DNA of 64,000 nt, from sequence record MF547663.1. One strand, given 5' to 3'. The DNA comes from Clostridioides phage LIBA2945. The notes under the pieces are model-generated. The model was not told the DNA's origin. It did no database searches and saw nothing but the letters and a program-made list of their open reading frames with translations. Positions 2,321-49,409 of the stretch are shown piece after piece. The position numbers and the translations under genes are program-made. Position 1 is the stretch's first letter. Each line of letters starts with the position of its first letter.

Positions 2321-2986
2321 TTAAATATAAAATTCTTTCATATCATCCAATCTTAAACAAGCCAATTTACCATTATCAAAACATGCTCCACAATCTATAT
2401 TTATAATTCCTTCCTGTTTATATATTTCAGCCTTTTCATAATCTTTAATGTTTTGAGTTGGTGTATGACCAATAATAATTGTGTATCCTTTTATATGTTT
2501 ATTAGTATTTAATATTGTTCTATCCCACACACAAATATCTTCTTCTTGTAACTCAATTATTTGCTCTATACTGAGATTCTCATAGTTATTTGGAAGGTAT
2601 AGTCCAGCATGGACTAGTATAAAATTATCTATTATCTCTAAATATGGAAGGTTCTTAATATATTTATAAAAATTTTCTTTATATTCATAAGACTTCATTC
2701 CTAAATCATAAAATGTATCTTTACCTCCATTATAAAACCAAAGAAAACTACTATTTACATCTGTATAACTTTCTTGAAACATTAACTCATGATTACCTTT
2801 TAGAAGAGTTATATTCTTATACTTTCTTATATAATCTATAATCTCTAAAGACTTATCCCCTCTATCTAATACATCTCCTAAAATATACAAATGGTCATTT
2901 GAATTGAAATTGATTTGCTCTAACATTGAAATAAATTTATCATACATACCATGTAAGTCACTCATTACATATTTAATAATTACCAC
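2321..2986 (-). CDS. calcineurin-like metallophosphoesterase (lambda-phosphatase/ApaH/Pnkp-phosphatase family)
   Basis: SDLHGMYDKF, GDVLDRGDKS, GNHE metallophosphoesterase motifs. Confidence 0.7.
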   Translation of the reverse strand: MVIIKYVMSDLHGMYDKFISMLEQINFNSNDHLYILGDVLDRGDKSLEIIDYIRKYKNITLLKGNHELMFQESYTDVNSSFLWFYNGGKDTFYDLGMKSYEYKENFYKYIKNLPYLEIIDNFILVHAGLYLPNNYENLSIEQIIELQEEDICVWDRTILNTNKHIKGYTIIIGHTPTQNIKDYEKAEIYKQEGIINIDCGACFDNGKLACLRLDDMKEFYI

Positions 2987-26981: not shown

Positions 26982-27717
26982 TTAATCATCTCCTTAATTA
27001 TTTTTTATATTCCCATTCATCAAATTCTTCTTTATCTTCATAAGCACACATTTCTGACCAACCACAATCACAATGTAGTGGTTCATAGCAAAATCCTACG
27101 CCTACATCTATACCATCTGCATAAGCAATCCCTCCACATCTAAAACTCATACACATCACTCCTTCTTAATTTTATTTAAATCTTTGAATCTTAATATCTT
27201 GTCTTAGATGTTCTACCATATTGACTATTTCTTTTTCTGAATATTCCTTTCCATATATTGTATCCATATAAAATTGAAATTGCTCTTTGTCATAATGAAC
27301 AAATCCTATCATATACATTATTAAACCTATCTGACTATCATCTAATCTCATAATTACTCCTATATAACAAAATCTTAATTCTAATCATTTATATAATTAA
27401 ATTATATTTTAATATTTTTTGTCATATACAATTCCCACCTCCACCATATATTTCTTTTATTTCACTTATTTTCACTCAATATATATACTCTTTCATATTG
27501 TCCTCATTTCTTTATTATTGTAATATCATTTAAATCGATTTTACATGTATTTAAACTCTTCATATAAGAAACTATAGGTTCTACTATATTCTCAATGTCT
27601 TCATATTAGACTCTAACTATATCGCAATTATCATTTTCTTCATTATCTATAAATTCAACATAAATTAATTAGGCATATCTTTTTTTATCCTTTTGATTTT
27701 ATTTAAATAACAAGATT

Positions 27718-28971
27718 CTAATTGCTTTTAAAATTATAAATTGGCTTTAACACCTCCATTATCTCAATAGTATCTCCTATATTGTTTAAGATGTCCTCTA
27801 TAGGTTTGTATGCTTGTGGTGCTTCATCTAGTGTTGATTGACCTACGCAAGTTGTAAATATTTCTTTCATAGATTCTTCAAATTCATCTAAAGATATTTT
27901 TTCTTTAGCTTTTCCTCTTGATAAAATTCTTCCTGCTCCATGTGGTGCTGAATAATTCCACTCAGAATTACCTTTACCTTTTCCTAATATAATCCCATCT
28001 CTCATGTTTACTGGAATTATTACTGTTTCATCTTTATTTGCAGAAATTGCTCCTTTTCTAAGTATTTTACTATCCATATCTATATAGTTATGAATACATT
28101 CTATAACATCACATTTAATATCTCTTATAAAATGGTCATAATTTACATCTAGGCTGTTATATTTAAACAATATATCCGCAATTATAACCATTCTATTTGC
28201 AACAGCGTATTTTTGAGCTATACTCATATCATGTAAATAATCTTCCATTAAATCATTTTCTAAATAACATAAATCATCATGTGGCTTATTCAATTTTCTA
28301 TCACTAAGGTCTTTCAAATATTTATTTATCAAATGTTCTTTATTGTCTTTTTTTAGAGTAGATATTAAAAACTCTTTTGCATCATCATATGACTTTTTAT
28401 ATTTTTCAATACAATATTTTATAGCTTTGTCTTGGTAATAATCAGCTATTTGTTTTCCTAAATTTCTTGAACCTGTATGAACAGTAAGATACATTTGACC
28501 TTTTTCACTTTTATCAACTTCTATAAAGTGATTGCCTCCACCTAAAGTTCCTAACGACATATATGCTCTATTTTTATTCACCTCGCATCTAAGATTATTT
28601 ATGTCTATATTAAATAAATTCTTTAATAGTTTTTCTCTTGACTTATTATGTATTTTAAATCCATGAGGAATATAATCTCTTATAATCTTATCTAATTTTG
28701 TATAATTTATATTATTAATATATTTTTCTAATGGAATAGTAGCCATTCCACAACCTATATCCACCCCTACCAGATTTGGCACTACTTTATTACTTATAGT
28801 CATTGTCGTTCCTATTGTACATCCTTTACCAGCATGACAATCAGGCATAATTCTTATACTAGATTCTTTAAATTCCTTTTGATTACATAAATTTATTATT
28901 TGACTTATTGTTGTACTATCTACATTATCTGTAAATATTTTTGCTTTATTATATTTTCCTTTAATTTCCAT
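27718..28971 (-). CDS. rtcB: RtcB-family RNA ligase (3'-phosphate/5'-hydroxyl RNA-splicing ligase)
   Basis: PDCHAGKGCTIG, DIGCGM, GGGNHFIEV, HNYI, RKGA and APHGAGR motifs all present. Confidence 0.85.
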   Translation of the reverse strand: MEIKGKYNKAKIFTDNVDSTTISQIINLCNQKEFKESSIRIMPDCHAGKGCTIGTTMTISNKVVPNLVGVDIGCGMATIPLEKYINNINYTKLDKIIRDYIPHGFKIHNKSREKLLKNLFNIDINNLRCEVNKNRAYMSLGTLGGGNHFIEVDKSEKGQMYLTVHTGSRNLGKQIADYYQDKAIKYCIEKYKKSYDDAKEFLISTLKKDNKEHLINKYLKDLSDRKLNKPHDDLCYLENDLMEDYLHDMSIAQKYAVANRMVIIADILFKYNSLDVNYDHFIRDIKCDVIECIHNYIDMDSKILRKGAISANKDETVIIPVNMRDGIILGKGKGNSEWNYSAPHGAGRILSRGKAKEKISLDEFEESMKEIFTTCVGQSTLDEAPQAYKPIEDILNNIGDTIEIMEVLKPIYNFKSN

Positions 28972-29023
28972 TTATTCTCCTTCCAATCCTTTTTTAACAT
29001 ATCTACACTCCTTTAATAATCTT

Positions 29024-29455
29024 TTAAGATATCTCGACCCCCTTTAAAATAAATTCGGATTTATCATCGCTTAAACTAATGTACCAATTATCATATTTCT
29101 CTTTAATATGACAATTGTCATACCATAGTATTTTTCCTATAACTTGGTTATCTACTATTGCTACATCCATTATAATTCCTACAACTTCATCTTTATAAAA
29201 ATCATTTACTCTATCAGCATCTCTATAATCTGATAATTCTTGATTTGGATTATATATAACTGGTGCATTTTTAAAAGTATGTATAGATTTTTCAACCATA
29301 GCTTTAGTTATTTCTATATTATGGCCTTTGGATATATCCATAACAATCATATTTGTGCTTACATAATTAGTATTAATATTCATCATATTCTCCTTTTTAA
29401 TTTTATTTAAATAGTAAAACTCCATGAAAAGGCTTATATTCTTTTTTATATACAT
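29024..29455 (-). CDS. hypothetical protein
   Basis: co-oriented ORF. Confidence 0.3.
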   Translation of the reverse strand: MYIKKNISLFMEFYYLNKIKKENMMNINTNYVSTNMIVMDISKGHNIEITKAMVEKSIHTFKNAPVIYNPNQELSDYRDADRVNDFYKDEVVGIIMDVAIVDNQVIGKILWYDNCHIKEKYDNWYISLSDDKSEFILKGVEIS

Positions 29456-29870
29456 TCATAAAAAGTAAGACTAGTTTTATTTGCTCTGTAATGAAATTTT
29501 GGATAGTTTTATTTGAAGTGTTTACATCTACTATTACACATTCACCCCTGTACCCTCTCAACTCCTGATAATTTATATCCCTATCAAATATTAAAAATTT
29601 TATTAATCTATCTGTGTTAAGAACTTTTAACTCTATTTCTATATTGTGTTTGATTCTATTTCTATGCTTTATTAGAGTATATTTATTTTTTATAGCTGCT
29701 CTTATTAATTCTTTGTAGACAAGTTGTTTGTTTGTAGTAAAAATTATTATTGTTTCTCCTTGTTTAATATCATCTTCATGAGTTTCGTTAGAAAAACTAT
29801 TTATCAATGTATCATAAATATTTTCATTGTTGTATTTGAATATTTCTTTATTTATTATCATATCAAACAT
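29403..29870 (-). CDS. hypothetical protein
   Basis: co-oriented ORF. Confidence 0.3.
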   Translation of the reverse strand: MFDMIINKEIFKYNNENIYDTLINSFSNETHEDDIKQGETIIIFTTNKQLVYKELIRAAIKNKYTLIKHRNRIKHNIEIELKVLNTDRLIKFLIFDRDINYQELRGYRGECVIVDVNTSNKTIQNFITEQIKLVLLFMNVYKKEYKPFHGVLLFK

Positions 29871-30061
29871 GTTTTATCTAAGCTCCTTTCTTGTAAAATC
29901 TAAACTATTTATTCTTGTCAAATTTACCATCAATAGCTATTTCTCACTTTTTCATTTCAAATTATAATACTATAAAAATAACTCCTAGTATTATAATTTC
30001 ATATTAATAATATAAGTCAATTTACACTTATATTATTAATGTGCTCATTTTTAATTAAATC

Positions 30062-30424
30062 CTATTCTTCTAAAATCATCAAATTATCTATGTAATTCTC
30101 AAAATCAATACTTTCACTACTTAATTTTTCCCCACATAAGAAACAATATTTAAATGGTATTCCTCCTGCAAATCTATCCACATTTAACTTTATATTTTGA
30201 TTTGAATCTTTGACAATTAGATTGTGTTCTACTGATAAATTTATATTCCCTTCTTTAAATTTATAAAAACTAATATCAAAATACTCTTCCTGGTCTAAAA
30301 GTTCTGTACTCTCATAAGTAGTATCTTTTCCTTTGATTCCTACAGAAGAAATTCTTACTCTTCTAGTTTCATGTTTTTTCATATCTTTTATACTGTCACA
30401 AAATTTACACATATTTACCTCCAA
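30062..30424 (-). CDS. hypothetical zinc-ribbon protein
   Basis: CKFCDS..CFLCGEKL cysteine pairs. Confidence 0.3.
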   Translation of the reverse strand: MEVNMCKFCDSIKDMKKHETRRVRISSVGIKGKDTTYESTELLDQEEYFDISFYKFKEGNINLSVEHNLIVKDSNQNIKLNVDRFAGGIPFKYCFLCGEKLSSESIDFENYIDNLMILEE

Positions 30425-30542
30425 CTAATAATTATATCACCCTTTTACTTATATTCATTTTAGCATATTCCAAAACTTTTATTATAAAACTAGCACTAAA
30501 TTTTCTATTGATATTAAATCCTGTATTTTAACTTGTTATTTG

Positions 30543-30824
30543 TTATCCCTTTATTAAATCCTGTACGTCTACAGCCACCGAACCTTTTCTTTCGAGTTTT
30601 ATAAAATTTTCCATTAGTATTTCAGGAAGTATATTCTCCCCATACTCTTCTTTTATTTTATCTTTTATTAAATTTATAATATATTCCTCCATTTCTTTAT
30701 CTGTCATATTAAGATATTTATCCAGGTCATAAATGACGAGTTGTTCTATATCTCTTCGATAATGGCATAGTATATCTTTTAAAAATATTTTTTTTATTAT
30801 CTTAATTCTTTTTTCATAAATCAA
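30543..30824 (-). CDS. hypothetical protein
   Basis: co-oriented ORF. Confidence 0.25.
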   Translation of the reverse strand: MIYEKRIKIIKKIFLKDILCHYRRDIEQLVIYDLDKYLNMTDKEMEEYIINLIKDKIKEEYGENILPEILMENFIKLERKGSVAVDVQDLIKG

Positions 30825-30984
30825 TAATTCTAAATTAAAATATGTTCTTTTTTCTTTGATTCTTATTTCATATTCAAAAATTCTTTCTAATGGTTTTATT
30901 GATTCGTTATTTTTTATATATTTTGACTTTATTAATTTCTTAAAAGAGTTAATTATATTTGCTCATCTCCTTCCATTTTAAGTT

Positions 30985-31431
30985 TTATATTCCATACATA
31001 TTAAAACTAAATTCTACCCCTTCATCATCCTCAAATTCTTCATTGAAGACTTCTTCTACTGTTTTATCCTTAGAGATAACTATATGTAAATAACCTCGTT
31101 TACTAATAAAAGAAGTTTGATAAAGATTATCTAAACCCAAGAAATCCCCTTCTTGTTTATAAGGTACATATATATCCTCCACACTTCCGTCTTCGTATTC
31201 TATCTTTACATTTGTAATATCCTTATAATCATGCAATCTTTGAATTTCATCAACACGTTTATGTATTTGTATATGTAAATAATCTGCCTGTTTGCATTTA
31301 CCTATATAACTCAAAGTAAATCCTCCAATAATTTCATGTATATTATCTAAATAAAAACCTCCTACATCTCCAATACCCAACTCTACATTCTCTAAGTTAT
31401 CTAATCCTAAAATTATTTTCTTTATTTTCAT
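30985..31431 (-). CDS. hypothetical protein
   Basis: co-oriented ORF. Confidence 0.3.
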   Translation of the reverse strand: MKIKKIILGLDNLENVELGIGDVGGFYLDNIHEIIGGFTLSYIGKCKQADYLHIQIHKRVDEIQRLHDYKDITNVKIEYEDGSVEDIYVPYKQEGDFLGLDNLYQTSFISKRGYLHIVISKDKTVEEVFNEEFEDDEGVEFSFNMYGI

Positions 31432-31628
31432 AACTCATTCCTCCATTAATTAAACTCTTAAAAATTATTGATGACGTCACACTTAGAGCATTTCCATCGT
31501 TTCTTTAATTTATAATTATCAAAATAAGAATTAAAATATCCTACAAATTCTTGAAATTCTATCCTTTCACATTGATAACACCATACTTTTACTACATCAC
31601 CTTTAGAATACATTTATTGTCTTTCTCC

Positions 31629-32009
31629 TTAATATAATCTCAATCTTTTAATTGTAGATGGTATTTCATCCTCATTAAATATTCCTAAGTTAACACATGT
31701 TATGCTATTTTTAGGAATTTCTGTTAATCCTCTATCCACTATAGTTAAATAACCTTTTTCTTTAAATTTTAATAATTGTGCCTCTTTAGCTTTCAATATA
31801 CATATTGTATCCCCATTATTCTTAAATGACGTTAAATCACATTTTAAATCTATTAATTCATGTGCTATTGTTTCTGTTTCATAAGAGCAAGAAACAGTGT
31901 CTAAAATTTTGTCATACAAATAATCATAAACTGCATGTGCAACTTGTGCTCCAACTTTGCCTGGACTCATATTTAAGTCTGAATTAATTGCTATGTACAT
32001 TTTTTTCAT
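31629..32009 (-). CDS. peptidyl-tRNA hydrolase, PTH2 family
   Basis: KMYIAINSDLNMSPGKVGAQVAHA matches the PTH2 signature (..DL.MG.GK.AAQ..HA). Confidence 0.7.
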   Translation of the reverse strand: MKKMYIAINSDLNMSPGKVGAQVAHAVYDYLYDKILDTVSCSYETETIAHELIDLKCDLTSFKNNGDTICILKAKEAQLLKFKEKGYLTIVDRGLTEIPKNSITCVNLGIFNEDEIPSTIKRLRLY

Positions 32010-32044
32010 TATTATAAACCTCCAAATAAATTAAAATTATTATC

Positions 32045-32521
32045 TTAATACCAATACATAATAATTAAACTATGTTTTTCAAAATCAATTATGTTTAACA
32101 TTTTTTGAAATTCTTTTAATACTAAATCCCAAAACTCCTGTGTATACCTATCATCAACTGTTACTTTTTTATCATTTTTATAATAATACTCTTTATCCTT
32201 ATTGTATATCTTAGAATTTATATCTTTTTGTTTAAGAAAAGGAATTATATAATCTTCCAAATCTTCCTTTGTAATAAGTATGGCTTCATCTTCATAACTT
32301 TCATAACCTTTTTCCCATTTGGCTTTATATATCATACGAATAACTGACCAATCTTCTAAAGATATATCAATATCTAATAATTCTTCAAACTTATAAAACT
32401 CTTCTTCATCATTATTCAATTCCTTATATTTCTCACCTCTTGTTTTATTTAAATAAGTATCTAAATCTGTAACTTTTGTTTTTACTGAATAAAAACCTAA
32501 ATCTAATCCCATATGTATCAC
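32045..32521 (-). CDS. hypothetical protein
   Basis: co-oriented ORF. Confidence 0.3.
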   Translation of the reverse strand: MIHMGLDLGFYSVKTKVTDLDTYLNKTRGEKYKELNNDEEEFYKFEELLDIDISLEDWSVIRMIYKAKWEKGYESYEDEAILITKEDLEDYIIPFLKQKDINSKIYNKDKEYYYKNDKKVTVDDRYTQEFWDLVLKEFQKMLNIIDFEKHSLIIMYWY

Positions 32522-32637
32522 CTCGCTAATTAAAACTGTTTTAATTAGATTCTAAATTCACTTTTTCTTTTATGATGTTTAATAAAGGTTTATAATTATC
32601 AATACCTATTGCTCTCATTACTCCATTATCTACATGT

Positions 32638-32982
32638 TTAATATATTTCATTAAATACCTCACTTATTATTTTTAATTCATCACAATCATGCTCATTTTC
32701 TAATTTATTTTTTATAAATTCTGCTACCTCCTCTTCTTTTAACTTTTCTATATCTTCTTGATGATTTAAGATAACCTTCATAATAGATGACAAAGACATC
32801 CCATAATCATACATCGACTCATCTCTTATAATATCCTTCTTTTTATTCTTATATATTATCATTAAGTCTGTTGTATAGCAGCTGCCATAGTCACACGTTT
32901 CACATCCACTCGAATATTCTTGCTCTGTTGTTATGTCTATTATTGCTCCATTCGTTAACTGTATTAATACCTTATCATCCAT
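32638..32982 (-). CDS. hypothetical protein
   Basis: co-oriented ORF. Confidence 0.3.
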   Translation of the reverse strand: MDDKVLIQLTNGAIIDITTEQEYSSGCETCDYGSCYTTDLMIIYKNKKKDIIRDESMYDYGMSLSSIMKVILNHQEDIEKLKEEEVAEFIKNKLENEHDCDELKIISEVFNEIY

Positions 32983-33082
32983 ATTTATTAATTCTCCTTT
33001 TTAATTTTATTTATTTAAAACTGTTATTTTATTTAAATTTCATTTGACTGTAAATACTCAAGATTTATAATATCTAATGATT

Positions 33083-33367
33083 TTAATATTCAACTTTATA
33101 CTCACCAGATATTTCAATACCTTCATTTTTTAAAATAATATTTCCATCTACAAAAACTGTTATTGTAACATTTTCTAATTCTACTTCCCCACTGCTTAAT
33201 TTACCTTCAATAGAAACACAATACGTTCCCTCTTTAAGTATCTTAAAAACTTTTTTAAGTATTTCTCTTTTATCCTCATTTTCTAGAATTAAGTTAAATT
33301 TAACATTATGTTTCTTAGATGGATAAATTATAAGATTAATTCTATCTTCTATTTTATATTCAGTCAT
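33083..33367 (-). CDS. hypothetical protein
   Basis: co-oriented ORF. Confidence 0.25.
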   Translation of the reverse strand: MTEYKIEDRINLIIYPSKKHNVKFNLILENEDKREILKKVFKILKEGTYCVSIEGKLSSGEVELENVTITVFVDGNIILKNEGIEISGEYKVEY

Positions 33368-33401
33368 TCAAACCTCCTTTTGATATAACACTATAGCTAT
33401 T

Positions 33402-33770
33402 TTATTCATTTATAATATTTAATTTGGATAGATTTATTTTATATTTATCTAAATAAGAATTTCCTTTGACCACATCAACTGCTTCATACCATAAATAATC
33501 TATATCTTCTTCAGATATTTTTAATTGTTCAATAGACTCTTCTTTCATTCTATCCATCCAGTTCTTAGCTTCTTTTTCTGTACAAACCCTATGCATATAC
33601 ACATGTATAAATTCGCCTTTACAAATTAATTCTTCTGCGATGTAATATAACCTTACTTCTTTATCATCTAAATCTTGTTTATTTTCTGATTCTTCCAAAG
33701 CTGATATTAGTCTTTCTGCTGCTTTCTCATCTTTTATATCTATATTTTTTAATATAGTTTTTGTAGACAT
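33402..33770 (-). CDS. hypothetical protein
   Basis: co-oriented ORF. Confidence 0.3.
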   Translation of the reverse strand: MSTKTILKNIDIKDEKAAERLISALEESENKQDLDDKEVRLYYIAEELICKGEFIHVYMHRVCTEKEAKNWMDRMKEESIEQLKISEEDIDYLWYEAVDVVKGNSYLDKYKINLSKLNIINE

Positions 33771-33790
33771 GGTTTCTCTCCTTATTATAT

Positions 33791-34327
33791 TTATTTTTTA
33801 ATCCAACCTTCTGGATAATCATTTCTTAAAACTCTTAACCCTAATACTTGTTGAGCTTGATGTATAGCATTTTGAAAATCTCTTAACTCAGAAGGATGCT
33901 GTCTTTTTAATTTGCAAAATCCATTCCATGCATTTATCAAATTGTCCATAACCACTCCTTCTTCATAATTTAATCCATCAAGTCTTTTTCCTTCTCTATT
34001 ACCATTCATTGTTATTGTAATCCCATTTAAATCTAAACTATTTTTATTTAAACTTTTTATGTAATGTATTATGGGTTTTACTACATCTTCAATATCTGCA
34101 TTTACCTTTCTAAGTAAACTATAATCACCACAATCATATTCAACATAAGCTAATTGGTTTGTATCACTATCAAAACCTAATGATAATTCTGTTTTACTAG
34201 CTATAGGTATTAAATCTCTTTTGCAATTAGGACATACTATTACATCTTCATTTAAGAAATAATAGTATTCTTGTAATGTTTCTTCTACATTGAAGTATTT
34301 ATTACAATTCTCACACCAAAACCTCAC
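33791..34327 (-). CDS. hypothetical zinc-ribbon protein
   Basis: CENCNKYF..CPNCKR cysteine pairs. Confidence 0.3.
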   Translation of the reverse strand: MRFWCENCNKYFNVEETLQEYYYFLNEDVIVCPNCKRDLIPIASKTELSLGFDSDTNQLAYVEYDCGDYSLLRKVNADIEDVVKPIIHYIKSLNKNSLDLNGITITMNGNREGKRLDGLNYEEGVVMDNLINAWNGFCKLKRQHPSELRDFQNAIHQAQQVLGLRVLRNDYPEGWIKK

Positions 34328-34346
34328 AGTATCACTCCTTTTATAT

Positions 34347-34742
34347 TTATAACATAGACTCTATTTTATTTATCTCTAATTCAACCTTCTTTTCATTAGA
34401 TAATAATTCCATTAATTTTATTTCCATCTCTTCAAGTTTACTTCTTTCCTCATTTATAGTTAATATATCTAATTTACTTTTTATATCATCTATCCAATCT
34501 TGTACATCATAACCACTCATTACAAGATTGAAGCCTAAATTTTTAGATGACATATTATAAGAATGTAACATAGATGCTAATAATATTAATTCATCTTTTT
34601 TTAGTACTTGTATATTAATTTTCTTATTATTCCAATTCAATATACAATTAGTTTTTGGTGTAAATTTTTTTATTGAATCTAACTTTTCTTTTTTTAATTT
34701 TATTTGTTCTTTTAAAGTTATTATTTTATTATCACTATTCAT
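34347..34742 (-). CDS. hypothetical coiled-coil protein
   Basis: co-oriented ORF. Confidence 0.3.
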   Translation of the reverse strand: MNSDNKIITLKEQIKLKKEKLDSIKKFTPKTNCILNWNNKKINIQVLKKDELILLASMLHSYNMSSKNLGFNLVMSGYDVQDWIDDIKSKLDILTINEERSKLEEMEIKLMELLSNEKKVELEINKIESML

Positions 34743-34745
34743 TAA

Positions 34746-35756
34746 TTATTTCCCCTCTCTATATAATCTTCCATTTAATAAATATGTGTTTAAATATTGT
34801 GGTCTTATTTTGTTATATAATTCTTCTAAATTGTTATATTTTTCTTCTCTATAACCATAAGTATAGAGTGTGCTACGTCCTTTTAAATATTTAATTCTAC
34901 CATCAGAATATATTCTTACTTTTTCTCTATTTGCATAAAATTCAATTCCCCAACATGTTTTATCATCTTTCATTTTTTCTTTAAATTCTTCTAATGAATA
35001 CTCTATATATTCATTTTTGGATTCATCTATTGGTGAATAAAAATAACTTCCTTCCATTTTATGAAATATATCAGCGTAATTTTCATGACAATCACTATCT
35101 ATAATACTTATTAACTTATTTAGTACACTTCTAAATTGTTCAAAATCATCCCTCTCAACATTATAAAACCAATGATATTTACCTGTACATTTTTTACCAT
35201 ACAAACTATAATAATCAAATTTCCCAATGTAAATAAAAGTTTGATTTTGTTTAGTTCTATATGTTGCCCCAATAATTAAATCTTTTGCTTTTATAATTTG
35301 TTTATTATGTAATATCTTATTAAATTCGGTGATTTCTTTATAATCTGGAGATGATATTGGTATTAGTATTAAATCCTTACCATCCCATCCATATACAAAT
35401 TCTCCCTCTAATCCTTTTCCTTTTATAGAGCTTGTATTTTCTAATATATATAATAAATTTTCTACTGTTATTTCAAATTCAAATCCTCTTGAATCATAAA
35501 TCCTAACATAAGTTTGTCTATGATTCCATCCTGTATTATAACCACCTATTTTTTTATTTAATACAAATCCTGACATTGGAGTATTTTTATATATTAAAGG
35601 TTCTATATTTTTATCTCTCCAAGAATTCCAAGATTGTTCTTTTCTCAATTTTCCATTTTCATCCTTATATATTACATAAGCAAGTTTACCTGTATAAGTC
35701 CCATTTCTATTTTGGAATCCTATAATTATTTCTTTAGGTATAAATATATTATTCAT
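34746..35756 (-). CDS. hypothetical protein (336 aa)
   Basis: long co-oriented ORF; no motif recognised. Confidence 0.35.
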   Translation of the reverse strand: MNNIFIPKEIIIGFQNRNGTYTGKLAYVIYKDENGKLRKEQSWNSWRDKNIEPLIYKNTPMSGFVLNKKIGGYNTGWNHRQTYVRIYDSRGFEFEITVENLLYILENTSSIKGKGLEGEFVYGWDGKDLILIPISSPDYKEITEFNKILHNKQIIKAKDLIIGATYRTKQNQTFIYIGKFDYYSLYGKKCTGKYHWFYNVERDDFEQFRSVLNKLISIIDSDCHENYADIFHKMEGSYFYSPIDESKNEYIEYSLEEFKEKMKDDKTCWGIEFYANREKVRIYSDGRIKYLKGRSTLYTYGYREEKYNNLEELYNKIRPQYLNTYLLNGRLYREGK

Positions 35757-35767
35757 AGCATCCCTTT

Positions 35768-35956
35768 CTATATAGAATTACTTAATAATCCTAGTTTTTC
35801 TAATATACTTATTCTCGCACTTTCAAGTTCGCATTCTTCACAATCTTTTCTTGAATTTCGCATTTCATCATAAGCGCATCCTCTCTTGCAAGGGTTTGAT
35901 GACAGATAAGCATCTATAGCTCTTATTTCGTTTTGATTTAGCTCTATTGTTTTCAT
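35768..35956 (-). CDS. hypothetical Cys-containing small protein
   Basis: co-oriented ORF. Confidence 0.25.
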   Translation of the reverse strand: MKTIELNQNEIRAIDAYLSSNPCKRGCAYDEMRNSRKDCEECELESARISILEKLGLLSNSI

Positions 35957-35977
35957 AAATCGCTCCTAAATACTTTT

Positions 35978-36580
35978 TTAATTCATACATTCTAACATTT
36001 CTTTTCTATATATACTGCTATAAACTATTTTCTTTGCTATTATCTCCATTTCTGATTTAGCTTGTTTTTCTTTATAAGAAAATGTATTAATATACTCACT
36101 AAGTACTTTTAAACTTTCATTCATAGTATCTAAAGTCTCTTTTAGTGTTTCTATTTCAGATGTCAATCCTTCTCTTTCAGCTAATAATTTGTCCTTTTCA
36201 GATGATATTTCATCCATTATATTAATATATTCTTTTTCGGTTTTGTCTAACTTTTTCAATAAATTTTCAATTATCATTAAGTCAGTTTCTCTATCAATTC
36301 CATATTCAACTCTATACAATGTTATTATTTTTGTATCTCTCAAATCTGTTATTAGTATGATATTGTCAACTAGCCTAAAATTTGTTTCAGTATATTTATC
36401 ATTAAATCTTCCTGTGTAAATCAATCTACTTTGTTCAAACATCTTATTTAAATCTTTTTGATATTGGTCTTTGTTTAAATTTAGATTCTGCTCTACACAA
36501 TTTTTCTCACACTCTTTAATTCTCTCTATATATCTTCTTAGTGCATGGTTAGTTACATTTATCATTTTATCTTCTCCCAA
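35978..36580 (-). CDS. hypothetical coiled-coil protein
   Basis: co-oriented ORF. Confidence 0.3.
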   Translation of the reverse strand: MGEDKMINVTNHALRRYIERIKECEKNCVEQNLNLNKDQYQKDLNKMFEQSRLIYTGRFNDKYTETNFRLVDNIILITDLRDTKIITLYRVEYGIDRETDLMIIENLLKKLDKTEKEYINIMDEISSEKDKLLAEREGLTSEIETLKETLDTMNESLKVLSEYINTFSYKEKQAKSEMEIIAKKIVYSSIYRKEMLECMN

Positions 36581-36762
36581 TCTACAAATTTATGAATATT
36601 AAAATTTAAATCTATATAATATAAATCATATTGTTCAATATTTTTATTTTTAAGTGTTAACGAAGCTCTCAAGCCTCCTAATGTCTTGAAACCAATTCTA
36701 TTACCATTACCTATATAAAAATCTTCCATATCTTTATTTTTCGCAAAATAAATCCTATTCAT
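36562..36762 (-). CDS. hypothetical protein
   Basis: co-oriented ORF with motif copy and RBS upstream. Confidence 0.3.
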   Translation of the reverse strand: MNRIYFAKNKDMEDFYIGNGNRIGFKTLGGLRASLTLKNKNIEQYDLYYIDLNFNIHKFVDWEKIK

Positions 36763-36780
36763 ACATTTATACCTCTATTA

Positions 36781-36806
36781 TTTTGTATTTTATTTAGTTT
36801 ATATCT
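36781..36806 (-). promoter_or_regulatory. conserved intergenic motif copy (a second copy at 36879..36905)
   Basis: coding strand ATATAAACTAAATAAAATACAAAATAAT; tandem second copy AATTATAAACTAAATAAAATACAAAA. Confidence 0.45.
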
Positions 36807-36948
36807 TTAACATATTGTATTTAGTTCCTCTTCCTTATTTATAATAATAACATAACTTTTCATTTATTTCAATAGTTATTTTGTATTTTATTTAGTTTAT
36901 AATTTTATTATTTATATTCGCATGATTAAATACTTTGTGTATATCTTT

Positions 36949-38232
36949 TTAATAATAAGAAACTTCTTTACCTTCCTCTCTAACTCTTAGAAAAACAGGA
37001 AATCTTAAGGATAGTTCACCTTTTTCATTGTTGGTTTCCTCGAAAAATTTTACTTCTATAACTCTTCCTAATATCTTATTTTGGTTAATAAAATAATACT
37101 TACGTTGTTCATCTGTAAATCCAGAGCCAACTCCTAATCTATATCCTTTATAATCACATATTATGTTGCCTAACAAATCCTTGTATTTACCATCACCTTC
37201 CTCTATATCAATACATCTTATATCACATGTATTAAACACCTTTACTTTAAGTAAACTTTTTACACGTTTACATTGATATGATTCATCAGATATATTAATC
37301 ATTACTCCCTCTTCATTATTGGATATCATTTCACTTAAATATTTATTAATCATTGTAATATCTCTACCTTGATATAATGGTTCTAAATATTCAATATATT
37401 TTAGTTCATTGATAAGTCTTTTAAATATCCTTTCAAGTTTGTTTTTTCTAATATAACATGGTGTTTTATCTTCTCCTGCATAAAAGTCATTTATATTTTG
37501 AACATAGTCATAACAAACCATTTTTAATCCTGTTTTAATACCTTTAACTCTACATCTTTTTAAAGTATCTTTAAATCGCTCTTTAGAATTTTTATAGATA
37601 CCTTCTGCAAGTAATTCACCATCATAAACTCCTACAGGCATTTTAATAAAATCTTTCTCTATATCAATTAAATTTTCTATTATCTGTCCTTGTCTGCTAA
37701 ATATTTTAATGGAGTTTTTATCTTTAACTACTATTATTCTTGTTCCATCCAATTTAGTTGTTAAAATAAATTCTTTATTACCAAGTTTATCTTTATTTTT
37801 ATCATAATTTTCTGCTAACATTACCCCAAATTCTCTTACAAGTCCTGGCATTATTTTATTTGCAGTTTTTGATGTCAAGCCTAATTTAATTGATTTTGTA
37901 GCTAATCCAATTATAAATTTTTTCAATTCTTCATTTTGATTTGCAAATACTTGTATAGTTTTAATGTCAGTGTCTCTTCCTGTGTTATTTTTAGATAGGT
38001 AATCAATCATATCATATACATTATTTAAATTACTATAATTAACACTATTTAATGACTTAGATATTTTCTTTTTAGATATTCCAGTTACAATATATGTATC
38101 TAAAAGAAATTGTAAACATTCAACAAACATTCTATTATTTTTATATTTTTCTAATATTCTCTCTTTTTCTTTTCTACTAGATGTAGCTGCTAAAATATCA
38201 AATATTTTTTTTATTTCTAAAAGCTCTTTCAT
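36949..38232 (-). CDS. ATP-dependent ligase of the KxDGxR nucleotidyltransferase family (DNA ligase-like; an RNA-ligase role is not excluded)
   Basis: motif I TTKLDGTRIIV; motif IV/V-like EGVMINISDESYQCKRVKSLLKVK. Confidence 0.6.
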   Translation of the reverse strand: MKELLEIKKIFDILAATSSRKEKERILEKYKNNRMFVECLQFLLDTYIVTGISKKKISKSLNSVNYSNLNNVYDMIDYLSKNNTGRDTDIKTIQVFANQNEELKKFIIGLATKSIKLGLTSKTANKIMPGLVREFGVMLAENYDKNKDKLGNKEFILTTKLDGTRIIVVKDKNSIKIFSRQGQIIENLIDIEKDFIKMPVGVYDGELLAEGIYKNSKERFKDTLKRCRVKGIKTGLKMVCYDYVQNINDFYAGEDKTPCYIRKNKLERIFKRLINELKYIEYLEPLYQGRDITMINKYLSEMISNNEEGVMINISDESYQCKRVKSLLKVKVFNTCDIRCIDIEEGDGKYKDLLGNIICDYKGYRLGVGSGFTDEQRKYYFINQNKILGRVIEVKFFEETNNEKGELSLRFPVFLRVREEGKEVSYY

Positions 38233-38286
38233 TAAAAACCTCCTTGTACCTACTAGGTAAAATCACATTAAAACTATTGTTTTAAC

Positions 38287-38511
38287 TTAATCTTCAACCT
38301 CATACCAATTCCAATCTATAAAATTTTCAAAAACATACTCCCATGCGATTTTATCTATATAATCCTCTCTCTCTTCATCAGACATATCTTTTAAATCATC
38401 ATCATCTATTTCAAACTCTAACTCGCAGTCTGAGCCAACTTTATTAGTTTTAACACATACATTTACTCTCATATTTAGCACCCTCCTATTTAAACTAAAC
38501 TTTTTCCCCAA
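38287..38511 (-). CDS. hypothetical acidic protein
   Basis: co-oriented ORF. Confidence 0.25.
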   Translation of the reverse strand: MGKKFSLNRRVLNMRVNVCVKTNKVGSDCELEFEIDDDDLKDMSDEEREDYIDKIAWEYVFENFIDWNWYEVED

Positions 38512-38833
38512 TCAAAACAGACTTTAACTCATTTTCTTTATCTTTAGAATAACAGTATCCATTATAATTATTTGCACATGTTAATAATTTACATTTTATT
38601 ATATACTCATTTATTATCTTACCATTATGATGTATAGACATTATTTCAGCTAGAGTTTCTCTACAATGTCTACATGCAAAATCATAAGTTTCTTGTTGAT
38701 TTATTTTTTTTAATCAAACAACAATCTTTATCTTTTAAAAATTTATGCCTAAATATACATCTTAAACTTTTAATAAAATATCACTCCTTATATATTTATT
38801 ATTCTTGTCATACTATTGTCATCATTGAAAACA

Positions 38834-39223
38834 CTAGTTTTCATTAACAACATCTTTTAGTTTAACTCTTTCTGTATCTGAAACAATAGACCATTTTGGC
38901 TTGTACCCAAATTCATCTACCCATTTAGAAAGTACTTCATTTACTCTATTATTTAATATATCTATGTGTTCTTTCTTTATATTAAGTATCCAACCGTCTC
39001 CAACTTCTCCATATTCATCATCTATTTCTTCTTGAACATTCCACAATATATTTTCTACATCTAAATCTGGAAGACCACCAACCTCTTCCTTTTTTCCAAC
39101 ATAAACATATTTCCCACATTTTTTCATTTTAGCTGCTTTAATCGCTTCTTTTTTACTTTCATACTCATCACTATTAAAATGTTCGTCATCCCAACTATAT
39201 AGCCATACATCTTTATTTTGCAT
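38834..39223 (-). CDS. hypothetical protein
   Basis: co-oriented ORF. Confidence 0.3.
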   Translation of the reverse strand: MQNKDVWLYSWDDEHFNSDEYESKKEAIKAAKMKKCGKYVYVGKKEEVGGLPDLDVENILWNVQEEIDDEYGEVGDGWILNIKKEHIDILNNRVNEVLSKWVDEFGYKPKWSIVSDTERVKLKDVVNEN

Positions 39224-39299
39224 TATCTCTCTCTCCTTTTATTTATTTTCTTATATCTCTCTTAAAGTAATTCTATATTTCCCATATTTAATCTCCCCC

Positions 39300-39626
39300 T
39301 TACATGACACCAATTGTGAATCTACAATCCACTATCATAAGAATCTCTCTCAATGTTTTGCCTATAAATGTATGGTCACTATCATAAATATTTCCTGAAA
39401 TATTTTCGCATTCAAATTTATATTCTAATAGAAACTCCCTCATTAATTCATTTGAATCTAAATCCTTTGGATTCGGAACTTCCAATTCATCCCATCCACA
39501 TGGATGAATATTACATGGTACATAAATAGTGCCTCCAAATTCCTCATGTGACAACTGGCAAATTTTTATAATAAAATCATCAGTAAGTTCATCTTTTTCA
39601 CAAATCTTTCTAAAGTTGAAATCCAT
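39300..39626 (-). CDS. hypothetical protein
   Basis: co-oriented ORF. Confidence 0.3.
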   Translation of the reverse strand: MDFNFRKICEKDELTDDFIIKICQLSHEEFGGTIYVPCNIHPCGWDELEVPNPKDLDSNELMREFLLEYKFECENISGNIYDSDHTFIGKTLREILMIVDCRFTIGVM

Positions 39627-39660
39627 TCAATAACCTCCTATTTTCTATAATTTGATTTAA

Positions 39661-40260
39661 CTACTCAAAAATCTCCACATATTTAAATGGTATATACTCA
39701 CATAACCAAACATTGTTTTCAGATAAGTAAAACTTATAACCATTTTCATACATTTTACCTGTATTAATTTTTAAAATTACAGGTGTACCATGTCTTTTAC
39801 CAACTTTAATAGCAGTATCTATATCCCTTGATAAATGTACATATAGTCTACTTTGTTTAATAATACCTTCATTTTTAATATTGTCTAAAAATCTAGTAGC
39901 TGTTCCATGATAAAGATATTCTGGTGGTTCTAATTCTTTCAATTCAACATCAATATTAATTGAATGTCCTTGATTTGCTCTAATCTTACTTCTATCCTCA
40001 TTAAAACTGTACCTTTGCTTATTATCTTCTTTAACTATTTGCTCAAGGATTTCTATATTAATATTTCTACCAGTATTATTTATTTTTTCAATCAATTCAT
40101 TAACATCTGCATATCCATAATCATCTAGTTTAATTCCAATAATTTCTGGTTTATGTCTTAATATTAAACTTATAAAAATAGATAACTTATCTTTTTTACT
40201 CATTGACTTCACCTCATCTTCTTTAGCTAATATTTCAGCACTATCTATACATCTCGCCAC
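39661..40260 (-). CDS. kptA: RNA 2'-phosphotransferase, Tpt1/KptA family
   Basis: LSIFISLILRHKPEIIGIKLDDYGYADVNEL; LYHGT; RLYVHLSRDIDTA; NNVWLCEYIPFKYV. Confidence 0.8.
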   Translation of the reverse strand: MARCIDSAEILAKEDEVKSMSKKDKLSIFISLILRHKPEIIGIKLDDYGYADVNELIEKINNTGRNINIEILEQIVKEDNKQRYSFNEDRSKIRANQGHSINIDVELKELEPPEYLYHGTATRFLDNIKNEGIIKQSRLYVHLSRDIDTAIKVGKRHGTPVILKINTGKMYENGYKFYLSENNVWLCEYIPFKYVEIFE

Positions 40261-40409
40261 AATTTTTACATTGATACATAGTACCTAATTGTGTATTAAG
40301 TTCATATATATATCCACCACAGTCACATTTTTTAATTCTTATTGGATTTTTCTTCATTTTTAATCACTCCTTTTCTATTAAAATCTTGATTTTAACTTCA
40401 TTATTCTTA

Positions 40410-40604
40410 TTAATATTTAATATATTTACCTTTGCATTCTACAATTAACCCTTCACTATTCCTATCGTTAATCCAACTTAATTTACATATCTTATTAACC
40501 TTAAAACATTTCTCTTCATTAGTTAAACATGTAGTACATTTGATTATCTTTCCTAGTGTTGGTAATGGTTCTCCCATTTTCACCCTAATTATCATTTCAT
40601 CCAT
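40410..40604 (-). CDS. hypothetical protein
   Basis: co-oriented ORF. Confidence 0.25.
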   Translation of the reverse strand: MDEMIIRVKMGEPLPTLGKIIKCTTCLTNEEKCFKVNKICKLSWINDRNSEGLIVECKGKYIKY

Positions 40605-40613
40605 TTTCTTCTC

Positions 40614-49390: not shown

Positions 49391-49409
49391 TTATAATACC
49401 TCCCACTAT

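What the first reader, a model, noticed from the sequence alone, without database searches (positions are those of the whole stretch)
27718..40260. RNA repair toolkit: RtcB, PTH2, KxDGxR ligase and Tpt1/KptA (plus a Pnkp-type phosphoesterase at 2321..2986)
Four enzymes that act on broken or charged tRNA sit in one co-directional gene array. RtcB (27718..28971) seals 2',3'-cyclic-phosphate/5'-OH ends. The PTH2 hydrolase (31629..32009) releases peptidyl-tRNA. A KxDGxR ligase is at 36949..38232. Tpt1/KptA (39661..40260) removes the 2'-phosphate left at junctions made by Trl1-type healing-and-sealing ligation. The 221-aa metallophosphoesterase at 2321..2986 is of the same family as the phosphatase domain of bacterial Pnkp. 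RtcB is the better-known phage and bacterial tRNA-repair ligase, whereas Tpt1 has no assigned role in bacteria. Their co-occurrence implies two separate RNA-sealing routes. It also suggests the ligase may be RNA-directed and generate 2'-PO4 junctions that Tpt1 would resolve. The likely purpose is a counter-defence against host tRNA or anticodon nucleases (PrrC/RloC/VapC-like abortive-infection systems).
Basis: partly seen in the sequence, partly recalled or inferred. Interest (0 to 1): 0.75.

Follow-up and report, generated by a model that had tools for sequence, protein, structure and literature searches.

The report
Known RNA-repair genes in C. difficile phage
This stretch of a large Clostridioides difficile prophage carries three intact RNA/tRNA-maintenance enzymes (RtcB, PTH2, Tpt1), but they are already annotated in public records, the nearby ligase is an ordinary DNA ligase, and nothing supports a second RNA-joining route.

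Summary
RtcB, PTH2 and Tpt1/KptA keep every catalytic residue that was checked.

- The KxDGxR ligase is a conventional three-domain ATP-dependent DNA ligase. It aligns full-length to the Prochlorococcus DNA ligase and has motif VI. All top 50 structural matches of its model are DNA ligases.
- The phosphoesterase is a lambda/NinI/ApaH-like Ser/Thr-phosphatase-type enzyme, about 25 kb away beside the NrdD/NrdG genes. It is not a Pnkp.
- Pfam scans of about 60 other window ORFs found no polynucleotide kinase, 2H cyclic phosphodiesterase, Rnl-type ligase, RtcA, archease or Macro domain. Nothing here could make the 2'-PO4 junctions Tpt1 would resolve.
- The genes are scattered among about 20 small unknown ORFs, inside a run of 78 co-directional genes.

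The window is a phiCD211/LIBA6276-like phage. GenBank already annotates these genes, and published comparative genomics already describes phage RtcB/KptA/PTH2 sets.

Verdict: real, ordinary, already known. The one open point is what Tpt1 does without a Trl1-type ligase.

The parts
27718..28971 (-). RtcB-family RNA 3'-phosphate/2',3'-cyclic-phosphate:5'-OH ligase, 417 aa
   Evidence: Pfam PF01139, 4.6e-66. phrog_1075 'tRNA splicing ligase', 1.3e-150. Metal-site and nucleophile motifs are kept: D71/C74 (GVDIGCG), N147-H148 (GGGNHF), H165 (VHTGSR), H294 (HNY) and H344 (HGAGR). It scores far below the cut-offs of the PrfH-coupled RtcB2 models: TIGR03073 116 against 272 bits, PRK09588 137 against 407 bits. 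It is 47-52% identical to the RtcB of large Bacillus and Listeria phages.
31629..32009 (-). PTH2-type peptidyl-tRNA hydrolase, 126 aa, a divergent phage clade
   Evidence: Pfam PF01981, 2.1e-14, 54 against 23 bits. phrog_1866, 7e-31. It aligns to archaeal Pth2 structures 1rlk and 1xty, with the catalytic Lys18, Asp86 and Thr90 of S. solfataricus Pth2 matched by K18, D92 and T96. It is below the NCBIfam equivalog cut-offs, 45.5 against 126 bits.
36949..38232 (-). ATP-dependent DNA ligase (N-terminal DNA-binding domain + nucleotidyltransferase + OB), 427 aa. It is not part of an RNA toolkit.
   Evidence: PF01068 and PF14743 are above threshold; PF09414 RNA_ligase is below it. phrog_114 'ATP-dependent DNA ligase', 6.6e-92. 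Full-length alignment to Pmar-Lig 6rau/6rar, 7e-30. Motifs: I K160 KLDGTR, III DGEL204, IV EGVMI308, V LLKVK327, VI RFPVFLRVR410. AF2 model pLDDT 92.1. All top 50 Foldseek PDB hits are DNA ligases, led by Pmar-Lig at 5.5e-32 and T4 DNA ligase at 4e-28.
39661..40203 (-). Tpt1/KptA NAD+-dependent RNA 2'-phosphotransferase.
   Evidence: PF01885, 4.4e-47. NF002014 equivalog cut-off met, 251 against 239 bits. Runella Tpt1 7kw8, 8.7e-51, with the R-H-R-R tetrad aligned: R35-H36-R83-R138 of the 199-aa reading, equal to R16-H17-R64-R119 of the 180-aa protein. SD GAGGTG lies 7 nt before the ATG at 40203. Most homologues are 180 aa.
2321..2986 (-). Stand-alone lambda-phosphatase/NinI/ApaH-like metallophosphoesterase, 221 aa. 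It is unlinked to the RNA genes, about 25 kb away beside nrdG/nrdD.
   Evidence: PF00149, 3e-17. phrog_246 'NinI-like serine-threonine phosphatase', 3.6e-63. Best PDB matches are ApaH 2dfj (3e-12) and lambda phosphatase 1g5b (2.6e-11); the Pnkp phosphatase 4j6o scores only 4.8e-5. TIGR04075 bacter_Pnkp scores 20.7 against 750 bits. Motifs DLHG10, GDVLDRG37, GNHE64, H126 and GH173 are present. In Enterococcus phage H1 its best match (weak: 2.7e-5, residues 2-72 only) is the Ser/Thr phosphatase near the nrd genes, not the calcineurin-like gene inside the tRNA array.

Best explanation
The window is the early/replication-accessory arm of a phiCD211/LIBA6276-like temperate siphovirus of Clostridioides difficile, about 130 kb, often carried as a plasmid-prophage.

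It encodes three separate RNA-maintenance enzymes that appear catalytically intact:
- RtcB reseals RNAs cut by metal-independent RNases. [quoted passage not shown]
- PTH2 releases tRNA from peptidyl-tRNA that accumulates when translation aborts.
- Tpt1/KptA uses NAD+ to remove RNA 2'-phosphates, or to ADP-ribosylate 5'-phosphate ends.

These are independently acquired accessory genes, dispersed among small ORFs of unknown function. They are not an operon. Most likely they help keep tRNA, rRNA and translation working when host or prophage RNase toxins act during induction or infection.

The KxDGxR enzyme is the phage's ordinary nick-sealing DNA ligase for replication and recombination. The metallophosphoesterase is a lambda-NinI-like phosphatase with no demonstrated link to RNA. 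There is one RNA-sealing route (RtcB), not two.

Shown: gene presence, family membership, intact active sites, DNA-ligase architecture, and no end-healing enzymes detected by Pfam profile search in the window. Inferred: the physiological substrates and the counter-defence purpose.
For: - Family and active-site evidence.
- DNA-ligase identity.
- No PNK, 2H, Rnl, RtcA, archease, Macro or NADAR in about 60 other ORFs. The largest unknown ORF in the array (34746-35756) has no kinase or ligase fold.
- Phage identity and prior annotation: window 27000-41000 is 100% identical to MF547662.1, where the genes are annotated as RtcB-family protein, peptidyl-tRNA hydrolase, DNA ligase and RNA 2'-phosphotransferase-like protein.
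- RtcB and Tpt1 are both present in most relatives: RtcB in 7 records and Tpt1 in 6 of the phiCD211-like set.
- Both also occur in an unrelated lineage. Erwinia phage Special G has RtcB at 45002-46222 and Tpt1 at 68844-69398.
- Under independence only about 1.3 of the 50,697 phage records would hold both (680 x 97 / 50,697).
- The published interpretation of phage RtcB/KptA/PTH2 as RNA-repair and ribosome-rescue genes is in PMC7824862 and PMC9503650. PMC5786514 lists these genes for this phage group.
Against: - There is no experimental evidence for any of the activities or for a counter-defence role in this phage.
- The three RNA genes are not adjacent, and the DNA between them is mosaic among relatives.
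- Components are separable. pCD1602_4 has RtcB but gave no Tpt1 or PTH2 hit, and ES-S-0107-01 gave no PTH2 hit.
- Tpt1 homologues about 68% identical in other large phage contigs stand alone, with none of the other genes within 8-10 kb.
- In other phages Tpt1's neighbours vary: an NAD+ salvage cluster in Bacillus phage G, a radical SAM gene in Dickeya AD1.
- Co-occurrence may partly reflect that large genomes collect accessory genes.
- RtcB and Tpt1 have no known shared substrate. RtcB junctions carry no 2'-PO4, and a dephosphorylated 2'-OH/3'-OH end is not an RtcB substrate (established biochemistry).
Confidence: 0.6

Rival explanations
1. One reading: there are two RNA-sealing routes. Besides RtcB, the KxDGxR ligase acts on RNA like Trl1 or plant tRNA ligase and leaves a 2'-PO4 at the junction. 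Tpt1 then removes that phosphate, and the Pnkp-like phosphoesterase heals the ends.
For: Tpt1 is intact and lies only 1.4 kb upstream of the ligase. This proximity is kept in 11 of 13 related IMG/VR loci. The RNA_ligase Pfam model gives a weak sub-threshold hit, 2.8e-4. Some DNA ligases can join RNA-containing nicks in vitro (general knowledge).
Against: - The ligase has an OB domain with motif VI and an N-terminal DNA-binding domain.
- It aligns full-length to a crystallised nick-sealing DNA ligase.
- All top 50 structural neighbours of its model are DNA ligases.
- Its 649 homologues all carry PF14743 + PF01068.
- The window has no 5'-kinase, no 2H/CPDase to create a 2'-PO4/3'-OH end, and no Rnl/Trl1-type fold.
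- The phosphoesterase is 25 kb away, lies beside the nrd genes, and scores 20.7 against 750 bits on the Pnkp model.
Confidence: 0.03
2. Tpt1 has nothing to do with RNA ligation here. It works as an NAD+-dependent nucleic-acid modifier or eraser. It might ADP-ribosylate 5'-phosphate ends of RNA or DNA, or remove 2'-phosphates placed on tRNA by a kinase, as KptA erases Up47. The apparent 'toolkit' is then a coincidence of unrelated accessory genes in a large genome.
For: - Tpt1 family enzymes ADP-ribosylate 5'-phosphate ends (PMC12678800, PMC11833690).
- KptA erases tRNA Up47 2'-phosphate (PMC9095486).
- In Bacillus phage G the Tpt1 gene sits inside an NAD+ salvage cluster, not among ligases.
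- Close homologues in other phage contigs have no RNA-repair neighbours.
- No enzyme that would generate 2'-PO4 junctions was found in the window.
Against: - RtcB and Tpt1 co-occur in two unrelated phage lineages, more often than independence predicts.
- No ArkI-like RNA kinase is known in C. difficile; this was not tested here.
- No Macro, PARG or NADAR partner that would handle ADP-ribosylated ends was found in the window.
Confidence: 0.25
3. RtcB and PTH2 together form a ribosome rescue-and-repair pair, analogous to E. coli RtcB2-PrfH. PTH2 would clear peptidyl-tRNA from ribosomes stalled by rRNA or tRNA damage, and RtcB would reseal the cut rRNA.
For: - GenBank names the protein 'release factor H-coupled RctB family protein'.
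- Its best NCBIfam hits are the RtcB2-like models.
- RtcB2-PrfH repairs colicin-E3-cut 16S rRNA (PMC9304027, PMC9223846).
- PTH2 is proposed for ribosome rescue in jumbo phages (PMC7824862).
- Large Enterococcus phages appear in the tblastn hit lists of both proteins (23 RtcB records, 7 PTH2 records), though no single Enterococcus record was checked for both.
Against: - Scores are far below the RtcB2 equivalog cut-offs, 116 against 272 and 137 against 407 bits.
- No PrfH or release-factor ORF was found.
- PTH2 is unrelated to PrfH and acts on free peptidyl-tRNA (established knowledge).
- The two genes are 2.7 kb apart with six ORFs between them.
Confidence: 0.1

Closest known systems
RNA-repair / NAD-ADPr gene sets of large and jumbo phages (Iyer, Aravind et al.; PMC7824862, PMC9503650)
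   Same: Those papers describe the same components, RtcB-type ligase, KptA/Tpt1 and PTH2, as phage counter-measures to tRNA-cleaving host RNases and stalled ribosomes. Calcineurin-like phosphoesterases are mentioned as occasional end-healing enzymes.
   Different: Those sets usually also contain 2H/cREC phosphoesterases, polynucleotide kinase-phosphatases, Rnl1/Rnl2 ligases and phage tRNA genes. None of these was found in this window: no tRNA and no such domains.
phiCD211 / phiCDIF1296T / LIBA6276 big C. difficile siphoviruses (GenBank MF547662.1, LN681537.2, CP011970.1; PMC5786514)
   Same: The region of the finding is 100% identical to LIBA6276. RtcB, the peptidyl-tRNA hydrolase, the DNA ligase and the RNA 2'-phosphotransferase are already annotated there and are listed in the description of this phage group.
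   Different: The window as a whole is a mosaic relative, not LIBA6276 itself. Coverage is 79% and 66% in the two flanks.
Yeast/plant Trl1-Tpt1 tRNA splicing pathway
   Same: The Tpt1 orthologue has an intact R-H-R-R tetrad.
   Different: There is no Trl1-type ligase, cyclic phosphodiesterase or 5'-kinase. The only ATP-dependent ligase is a DNA ligase.
Phage T4 Pnkp-Rnl1 repair of PrrC-cleaved tRNA-Lys; bacterial Pnkp-Hen1
   Same: The proposed purpose is the same: undoing RNase damage to tRNA.
   Different: The chemistry differs. RtcB seals directly, whereas T4 and Pnkp-Hen1 heal the ends and then seal. No kinase-phosphatase-ligase polyprotein or Hen1 is present, and the bacter_Pnkp model scores 20.7 against 750 bits.
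E. coli RtcB2-PrfH ribosome rescue/repair module
   Same: An RtcB-family ligase occurs together with a factor that hydrolyses peptidyl-tRNA.
   Different: The RtcB2 equivalog cut-offs are not met. PTH2 is unrelated to PrfH, and the genes are not adjacent.
Prochlorococcus marinus DNA ligase (Pmar-Lig, 6rar/6rau) and T4 DNA ligase (6dt1)
   Same: The window's ligase shares their three-domain architecture, all nucleotidyltransferase motifs and their fold.
   Different: Sequence identity is only about 20-26%. The biochemical activity of the phage enzyme is untested.

Membership tests
RtcB RNA ligase (PF01139) | Profile match above the curated threshold over the whole domain | tested here: met
   224 bits against a cut-off of 27, covering residues 36-415 of 417. 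phrog_1075, 1.3e-150.
RtcB RNA ligase (PF01139) | Binuclear metal ligands (Asp, Cys, three His) and the histidine-GMP nucleophile | tested here: met
   D71, C74, H148, H165 and H294 are present, and H344 lies in HGAGR. D71, C74, H148, H165 and H344 align to P. horikoshii RtcB D95, C98, H203, H234 and H404; H294 was found only as the HNY motif, because the region around Pho H329 was not in the printed alignment.
RtcB RNA ligase (PF01139) | GTP/Mn2+-dependent joining of 3'-P or 2',3'>P ends to 5'-OH ends | not testable with these tools
   This needs a biochemical assay.
PrfH-coupled RtcB2 subfamily | Equivalog score cut-off and an adjacent prfH gene | tested here: not met
   TIGR03073 scores 116 against 271.8 bits and PRK09588 scores 137 against 407 bits. 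No release-factor-like ORF lies among the neighbours.
Tpt1/KptA RNA 2'-phosphotransferase (PF01885) | Profile match above the curated thresholds | tested here: met
   PF01885 scores 160.9 against 26 bits. NF002014 equivalog scores 251.2 against 239 bits.
Tpt1/KptA RNA 2'-phosphotransferase (PF01885) | Catalytic Arg-His-Arg-Arg tetrad | tested here: met
   R35-H36-R83-R138 align without gaps to R16-H17-R64-R119 of Runella Tpt1 7kw8.
Tpt1/KptA RNA 2'-phosphotransferase (PF01885) | NAD+-dependent removal of an internal RNA 2'-PO4 | not testable with these tools
   This needs a biochemical assay or yeast tpt1 complementation.
PTH2 peptidyl-tRNA hydrolase (PF01981) | Profile match above the Pfam threshold, and conserved catalytic Lys and Asp | tested here: met
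   54.1 against 23 bits. K18, D92 and T96 align with K18, D86 and T90 of S. solfataricus Pth2 1xty. The NCBIfam equivalog cut-offs are not met (45.5 against 126 bits), so this is a divergent clade.
ATP-dependent DNA ligase (PF01068 + OB) | Nucleotidyltransferase motifs I, III, IV and V, plus an OB domain with motif VI | tested here: met
   K160 KLDGTR, DGEL204, EGVMI308, LLKVK327 and RFPVFLRVR410. PF01068 scores 53.2 against 26.2 bits and PF14743 scores 58.2 against 28 bits.
ATP-dependent DNA ligase (PF01068 + OB) | Three-domain fold that encircles DNA (DBD-NTase-OB) | tested here: met
   Residues 9-415 align to residues 10-431 of 6rau. The AF2 model has pLDDT 92.1. All top 50 Foldseek PDB hits are DNA ligases.
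Rnl/Trl1-type RNA ligase | RNA-ligase profile above threshold, an Rnl-specific C-terminal domain instead of OB/motif VI, and a requirement for a 2'-PO4 (Trl1) | tested here: not met
   PF09414 scores 21.5 against 27 bits. The OB domain with motif VI is present. No RNA ligase appears in the top 50 fold matches. Substrate preference cannot be tested here.
Bacterial Pnkp (kinase-phosphatase-ligase, partner Hen1) | Tri-domain protein of about 850 aa with a P-loop kinase, a metallophosphatase and a ligase, with an adjacent hen1 gene | tested here: not met
   This is a 221-aa single-domain protein. TIGR04075 scores 20.7 against 750 bits. No kinase or Hen1 methyltransferase was found in the window.
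Lambda phosphatase / NinI / ApaH-like metallophosphoesterases | The motifs DxH, GDxxDRG, GNH[ED], H and GH, and a family profile match | tested here: met
   DLHG10, GDVLDRG37, GNHE64, H126 and GH173. phrog_246, 3.6e-63. 1g5b, 2.6e-11, and 2dfj, 3e-12.

The most novel reading that the evidence does not exclude
Tpt1 recurs together with RtcB in two unrelated phage lineages, the C. difficile phiCD211-like phages and the Erwinia Agricanvirus jumbo phages. In this window it has no detectable enzyme that could generate a 2'-PO4 junction. Phage Tpt1 may therefore act on a non-splicing substrate. It could erase RNA 2'-phosphates left or installed by a host defence or toxin, or cap 5'-phosphate ends with ADP-ribose. 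That would make these inducible prophages a tractable system for the long-open question of what bacterial Tpt1 does.
Probability: 0.15. Interest if true: 0.6.

Novelty: already known. Interest (0 to 1): 0.2.

Why it matters
The practical value is a corrected annotation. There are three RNA-maintenance enzymes, one DNA ligase and one NinI-like phosphatase. There is no second RNA-sealing pathway and no Pnkp.

If the counter-defence role were demonstrated, it would explain how very common C. difficile plasmid-prophages tolerate RNase toxins during induction. One Tpt1 variant alone is on 996 contigs.

The only point of wider interest is the physiological substrate of Tpt1 in bacteria and phages, which remains unresolved. 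A phage that keeps Tpt1 with RtcB but without a Trl1-type ligase is a reasonable place to look. It is not a new observation.

Tried and rejected
1. Ligase as an RNA ligase: rejected by Pfam, PHROG and NCBIfam, the PDB sequence search, 649 homologues of uniform architecture, and the AF2 model with Foldseek.
2. Hidden end-healing enzymes: Pfam scans of about 60 ORFs across the window and PHROG scans of ten unknown ORFs, eight of them inside the array, gave only 'unknown function' or unrelated domains.
4. RtcB2-PrfH membership: cut-offs not met and no prfH gene.
5. Operon structure: the promoter scan was uninformative at 25% GC, with fewer hits than in shuffles, and no terminator-like sites were found.
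6. RNA genes: no tRNA or tmRNA and no Rfam family.
7. Defence or toxin genes in the window that might supply RtcB substrates: PADLOC found only a DndB-like protein. A MazE-like antitoxin has no recognisable toxin.
8. Guilt by association for Tpt1 in other phages: neighbourhoods are inconsistent.
9. Literature on a C. difficile anticodon nuclease or on experimentally tested phage RtcB/Tpt1 counter-defence: nothing found.
10. The Garneau et al. 2018 phiCD211 paper is not held in the library.

Full report
**What the window is**

Window 27000-41000 is 100% identical to Clostridioides phage LIBA6276 (MF547662.1), a 134-kb circular genome, and 92-97% identical over parts to phiCD211, phiCDIF1296T and AR1086-1. 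The flanks match LIBA6276 over only 79% and 66% of their length. The window therefore comes from a mosaic relative in the phiCD211-like group of large temperate C. difficile siphoviruses. GC content is 25%.

Of the 82 ORFs of at least 60 aa between positions 157 and 55995, 78 are on the minus strand. 'One co-directional gene array' therefore describes the whole arm of the genome, not a special cluster.

**Checking the observation**

All five ORFs exist as described, on the minus strand.

| ORF | Pfam | PHROG |
|---|---|---|
| RtcB | PF01139, 4.6e-66 | tRNA splicing ligase, 1.3e-150 |
| PTH2 | PF01981, 2.1e-14 | phrog_1866, unknown function, 7e-31 |
| Ligase | DNA_ligase_A_M 4.2e-14 + DNA_ligase_OB_2 8.3e-16 | ATP-dependent DNA ligase, 6.6e-92 |
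| Tpt1 | PF01885, 4.4e-47 | RNA 2'-phosphotransferase, 1.2e-97 |
| Phosphoesterase | Metallophos, 3e-17 | NinI-like serine-threonine phosphatase, 3.6e-63 |

The RNA_ligase model PF09414 hits the ligase only below threshold.

Active sites are intact in every case:
- RtcB has D71/C74, N147-H148, H165, H294 and the HGAGR histidine H344.
- Tpt1 has the R-H-R-R tetrad, aligned without gaps to Runella Tpt1.
- PTH2 has K18, D92 and T96, matching K18, D86 and T90 of S. solfataricus Pth2.
- The ligase has motifs I, III, IV, V and VI.
- The phosphoesterase has DxH, GDxxDRG, GNHE, H and GH.

One coordinate correction is needed. Tpt1 most likely starts at the ATG at 40203, giving 180 aa. A GAGGTG Shine-Dalgarno lies 7 nt upstream of it. 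A small upstream ORF ends inside the longer reading. Most database homologues are 180 aa.

**The ligase**

The protein aligns over residues 9-415 to the crystallised ATP-dependent DNA ligase of Prochlorococcus marinus (6rau/6rar, 7e-30). It also aligns to a Rhizobium phage ligase, to Chlorella virus ligase and to T4 DNA ligase.

It carries an OB domain with the DNA-ligase motif VI (RFPVFLRVR) and an N-terminal helical DNA-binding domain. Its 649 detectable homologues are uniformly about 420-440 aa with PF14743 + PF01068, many on contigs of 120-140 kb.

An AlphaFold2 model built on 40 of them has mean pLDDT 92.1. The top 50 Foldseek matches in the PDB are all DNA ligases: Pmar-Lig at 5.5e-32, T4 at 4e-28, and archaeal and human Lig1/3/4. 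No RNA ligase appears. This is a conventional nick-sealing DNA ligase, as GenBank already says.

**The phosphoesterase**

It is a stand-alone 221-aa protein, the same length as lambda phosphatase. Its best structural-database relatives are ApaH (3e-12) and lambda phosphatase (2.6e-11). The C. thermocellum Pnkp phosphatase domain is a distant hit at 4.8e-5, and the bacterial Pnkp equivalog model scores 20.7 bits against a cut-off of 750.

It lies about 25 kb from the RNA genes, close to nrdG and nrdD. In Enterococcus phage H1 its best match is weak (2.7e-5, N-terminal 72 residues only) and is the Ser/Thr phosphatase that also lies near the nrd genes, not the calcineurin-like gene embedded in that phage's tRNA array. 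Calling it 'Pnkp-type' over-reads a superfamily resemblance.

**Is there a second RNA-sealing route?**

I scanned about 60 further ORFs of the window against Pfam and ten unknown ORFs, eight of them inside the array, against PHROGs. None matches a polynucleotide kinase, 2H/LigT cyclic phosphodiesterase, Rnl1/Rnl2/Trl1 ligase, RtcA, archease, Macro, NADAR or HD phosphatase.

There are no tRNA genes and no Rfam families. Nothing detectable in the window could create a 3'-OH/2'-PO4 end or a 2'-PO4 junction. RtcB is a complete one-enzyme sealing route on its own (established biochemistry of the family).

**Are the three RNA enzymes a functional set?**

For a functional link:
- They are retained in most phiCD211-like records, with RtcB in 7, Tpt1 in 6 and PTH2 in 5.
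- RtcB occurs in 680 and Tpt1 in 97 of 50,697 phage records. Independence would therefore give about 1.3 joint records.
- At least two unrelated lineages carry both. These are the C. difficile phages and Erwinia phage Special G, with RtcB at 45.0 kb and Tpt1 at 68.8 kb.

Against a functional link:
- The genes are 2.7, 4.9 and 1.4 kb apart, with 20 hypothetical CDS between them.
- The intervening DNA is mosaic among 13 related IMG/VR loci.
- pCD1602_4 has RtcB only.
- Tpt1 homologues about 68% identical in other phage-like contigs of 140-170 kb stand alone.
- Tpt1's neighbours elsewhere are inconsistent: an NAD+ salvage cluster in Bacillus phage G, a radical SAM gene in Dickeya AD1, and hypothetical genes in Ea35-70.
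- Large genomes accumulate accessory genes, so the raw co-occurrence figure is inflated.

**Most likely mechanism**

RtcB reseals RNAs cleaved by metal-independent RNases. PTH2 recycles tRNA from peptidyl-tRNA released when translation aborts. Tpt1 removes RNA 2'-phosphates or ADP-ribosylates 5'-phosphate ends using NAD+.

These are three independent maintenance activities for the translation apparatus during induction or infection. This is the interpretation already published for such genes in large phages (PMC7824862, PMC9503650). None of it has been tested in this phage.

Biochemically, RtcB and Tpt1 do not feed each other, so Tpt1's substrate here is unknown. Known non-splicing roles are erasure of tRNA Up47 2'-phosphate (PMC9095486) and 5'-phosphate ADP-ribosylation (PMC12678800, PMC11833690).

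The alternative that RtcB + PTH2 mimic the RtcB2-PrfH ribosome repair module is weak. The RtcB2 equivalog cut-offs are missed by a wide margin and there is no prfH gene.

**Novelty**

The genes are annotated in the public records of LIBA6276, phiCD211, phiCDIF1296T and AR1086-1. [quoted passage not shown] The concept of phage RNA-repair kits including KptA, RtcB and PTH2 is published.

The finding is therefore real but already known, and its two more adventurous claims are not supported. Those claims are an RNA-directed ligase producing Tpt1 substrates, and a Pnkp-type healing enzyme. The residual interest is the unresolved role of Tpt1 in bacteria and phages.

Noticed in passing
[not shown]
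   Followed up: partly
L028 (Bacillus phage G, NC_023719.1 199035-211574): Here the Tpt1/KptA gene (gp280) sits inside an NAD+ salvage/synthesis cluster of a Nudix hydrolase, an isochorismatase-like gene, a nicotinate phosphoribosyltransferase, NadD-like and NAD synthetase genes. In that phage Tpt1 is linked to NAD+ supply rather than to ligases.
   Followed up: no
window 40241-40356 (-): A small ORF of 38 aa (MKKNPIRIKKCDCGG...CKNCGEMYR, zinc-ribbon-like Cys pairs) lies immediately upstream of Tpt1. Its stop lies inside the 199-aa GTG-initiated reading of Tpt1, which supports the shorter 180-aa Tpt1 CDS.
   Followed up: partly
window 45065-46638 (-): An IS200/IS605 element: TnpA (Y1 transposase, 1.8e-42) at 46225-46638 and TnpB/Cas12f-like OrfB at 45065-46228. 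This flank matches LIBA6276 over only 66% of its length, but whether the element is present in LIBA6276 at this place was not checked.
   Followed up: no
window 1783-2310 (-): A DUF1256 (YyaC/GPR-protease-like, 3.1e-43) gene lies directly beside the phosphoesterase. It has no counterpart at that position in the LIBA6276 annotation, so it is a local mosaic difference.
   Followed up: no
window 7571-8710 (-): An orphan DndB-like / DGQHR protein (Pfam DndB 3.9e-31; PADLOC DndB 5.7e-10) lies between nrdD and dnaE. No other dnd genes were seen.
   Followed up: no
window 55380-55568 (-); 55663-55995 and 57317-57694 (-): A MazE-like antitoxin fragment (1.1e-3, below threshold) has no recognisable toxin beside it. 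Two paralogous XhlA-like coiled-coil genes have 5' ends and upstream regions that form an 89-nt direct repeat (78% identical) 1.7 kb apart.
   Followed up: no
window 48657-49805 (-): Three consecutive HTH_19/XRE-type regulator genes of 118, 126 and 131 aa lie upstream of a 481-aa protein of unknown function (phrog_11092).
   Followed up: no
L019 (Logan ERR13960800 contig, 143.6 kb) 10001-12328; L025/L026: In another large phage-like contig, a Tpt1 67% identical to this one lies 1.3 kb upstream of a PemK/MazF-type endoribonuclease toxin gene. Other large phage contigs that carry the conserved 336-aa unknown also encode a microbial PARG and an AAA_33 + HD kinase-phosphatase-like protein.
   Followed up: no
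window 33791-34327 (-): This 178-aa protein has an N-terminal zinc ribbon. Its C-terminal roughly 50 residues match a small PHROG annotated 'DNA ligase' (phrog_13916, 1e-12). Its significance is unknown.
   Followed up: no
L006-L018 (IMG/VR C. difficile big-phage loci): The DNA ligase occurs in two allelic forms among close relatives, about 73-80% and 98-100% identical to the window's, while Tpt1 stays 82-95% identical. This indicates recombinational replacement of the ligase gene.
   Followed up: no
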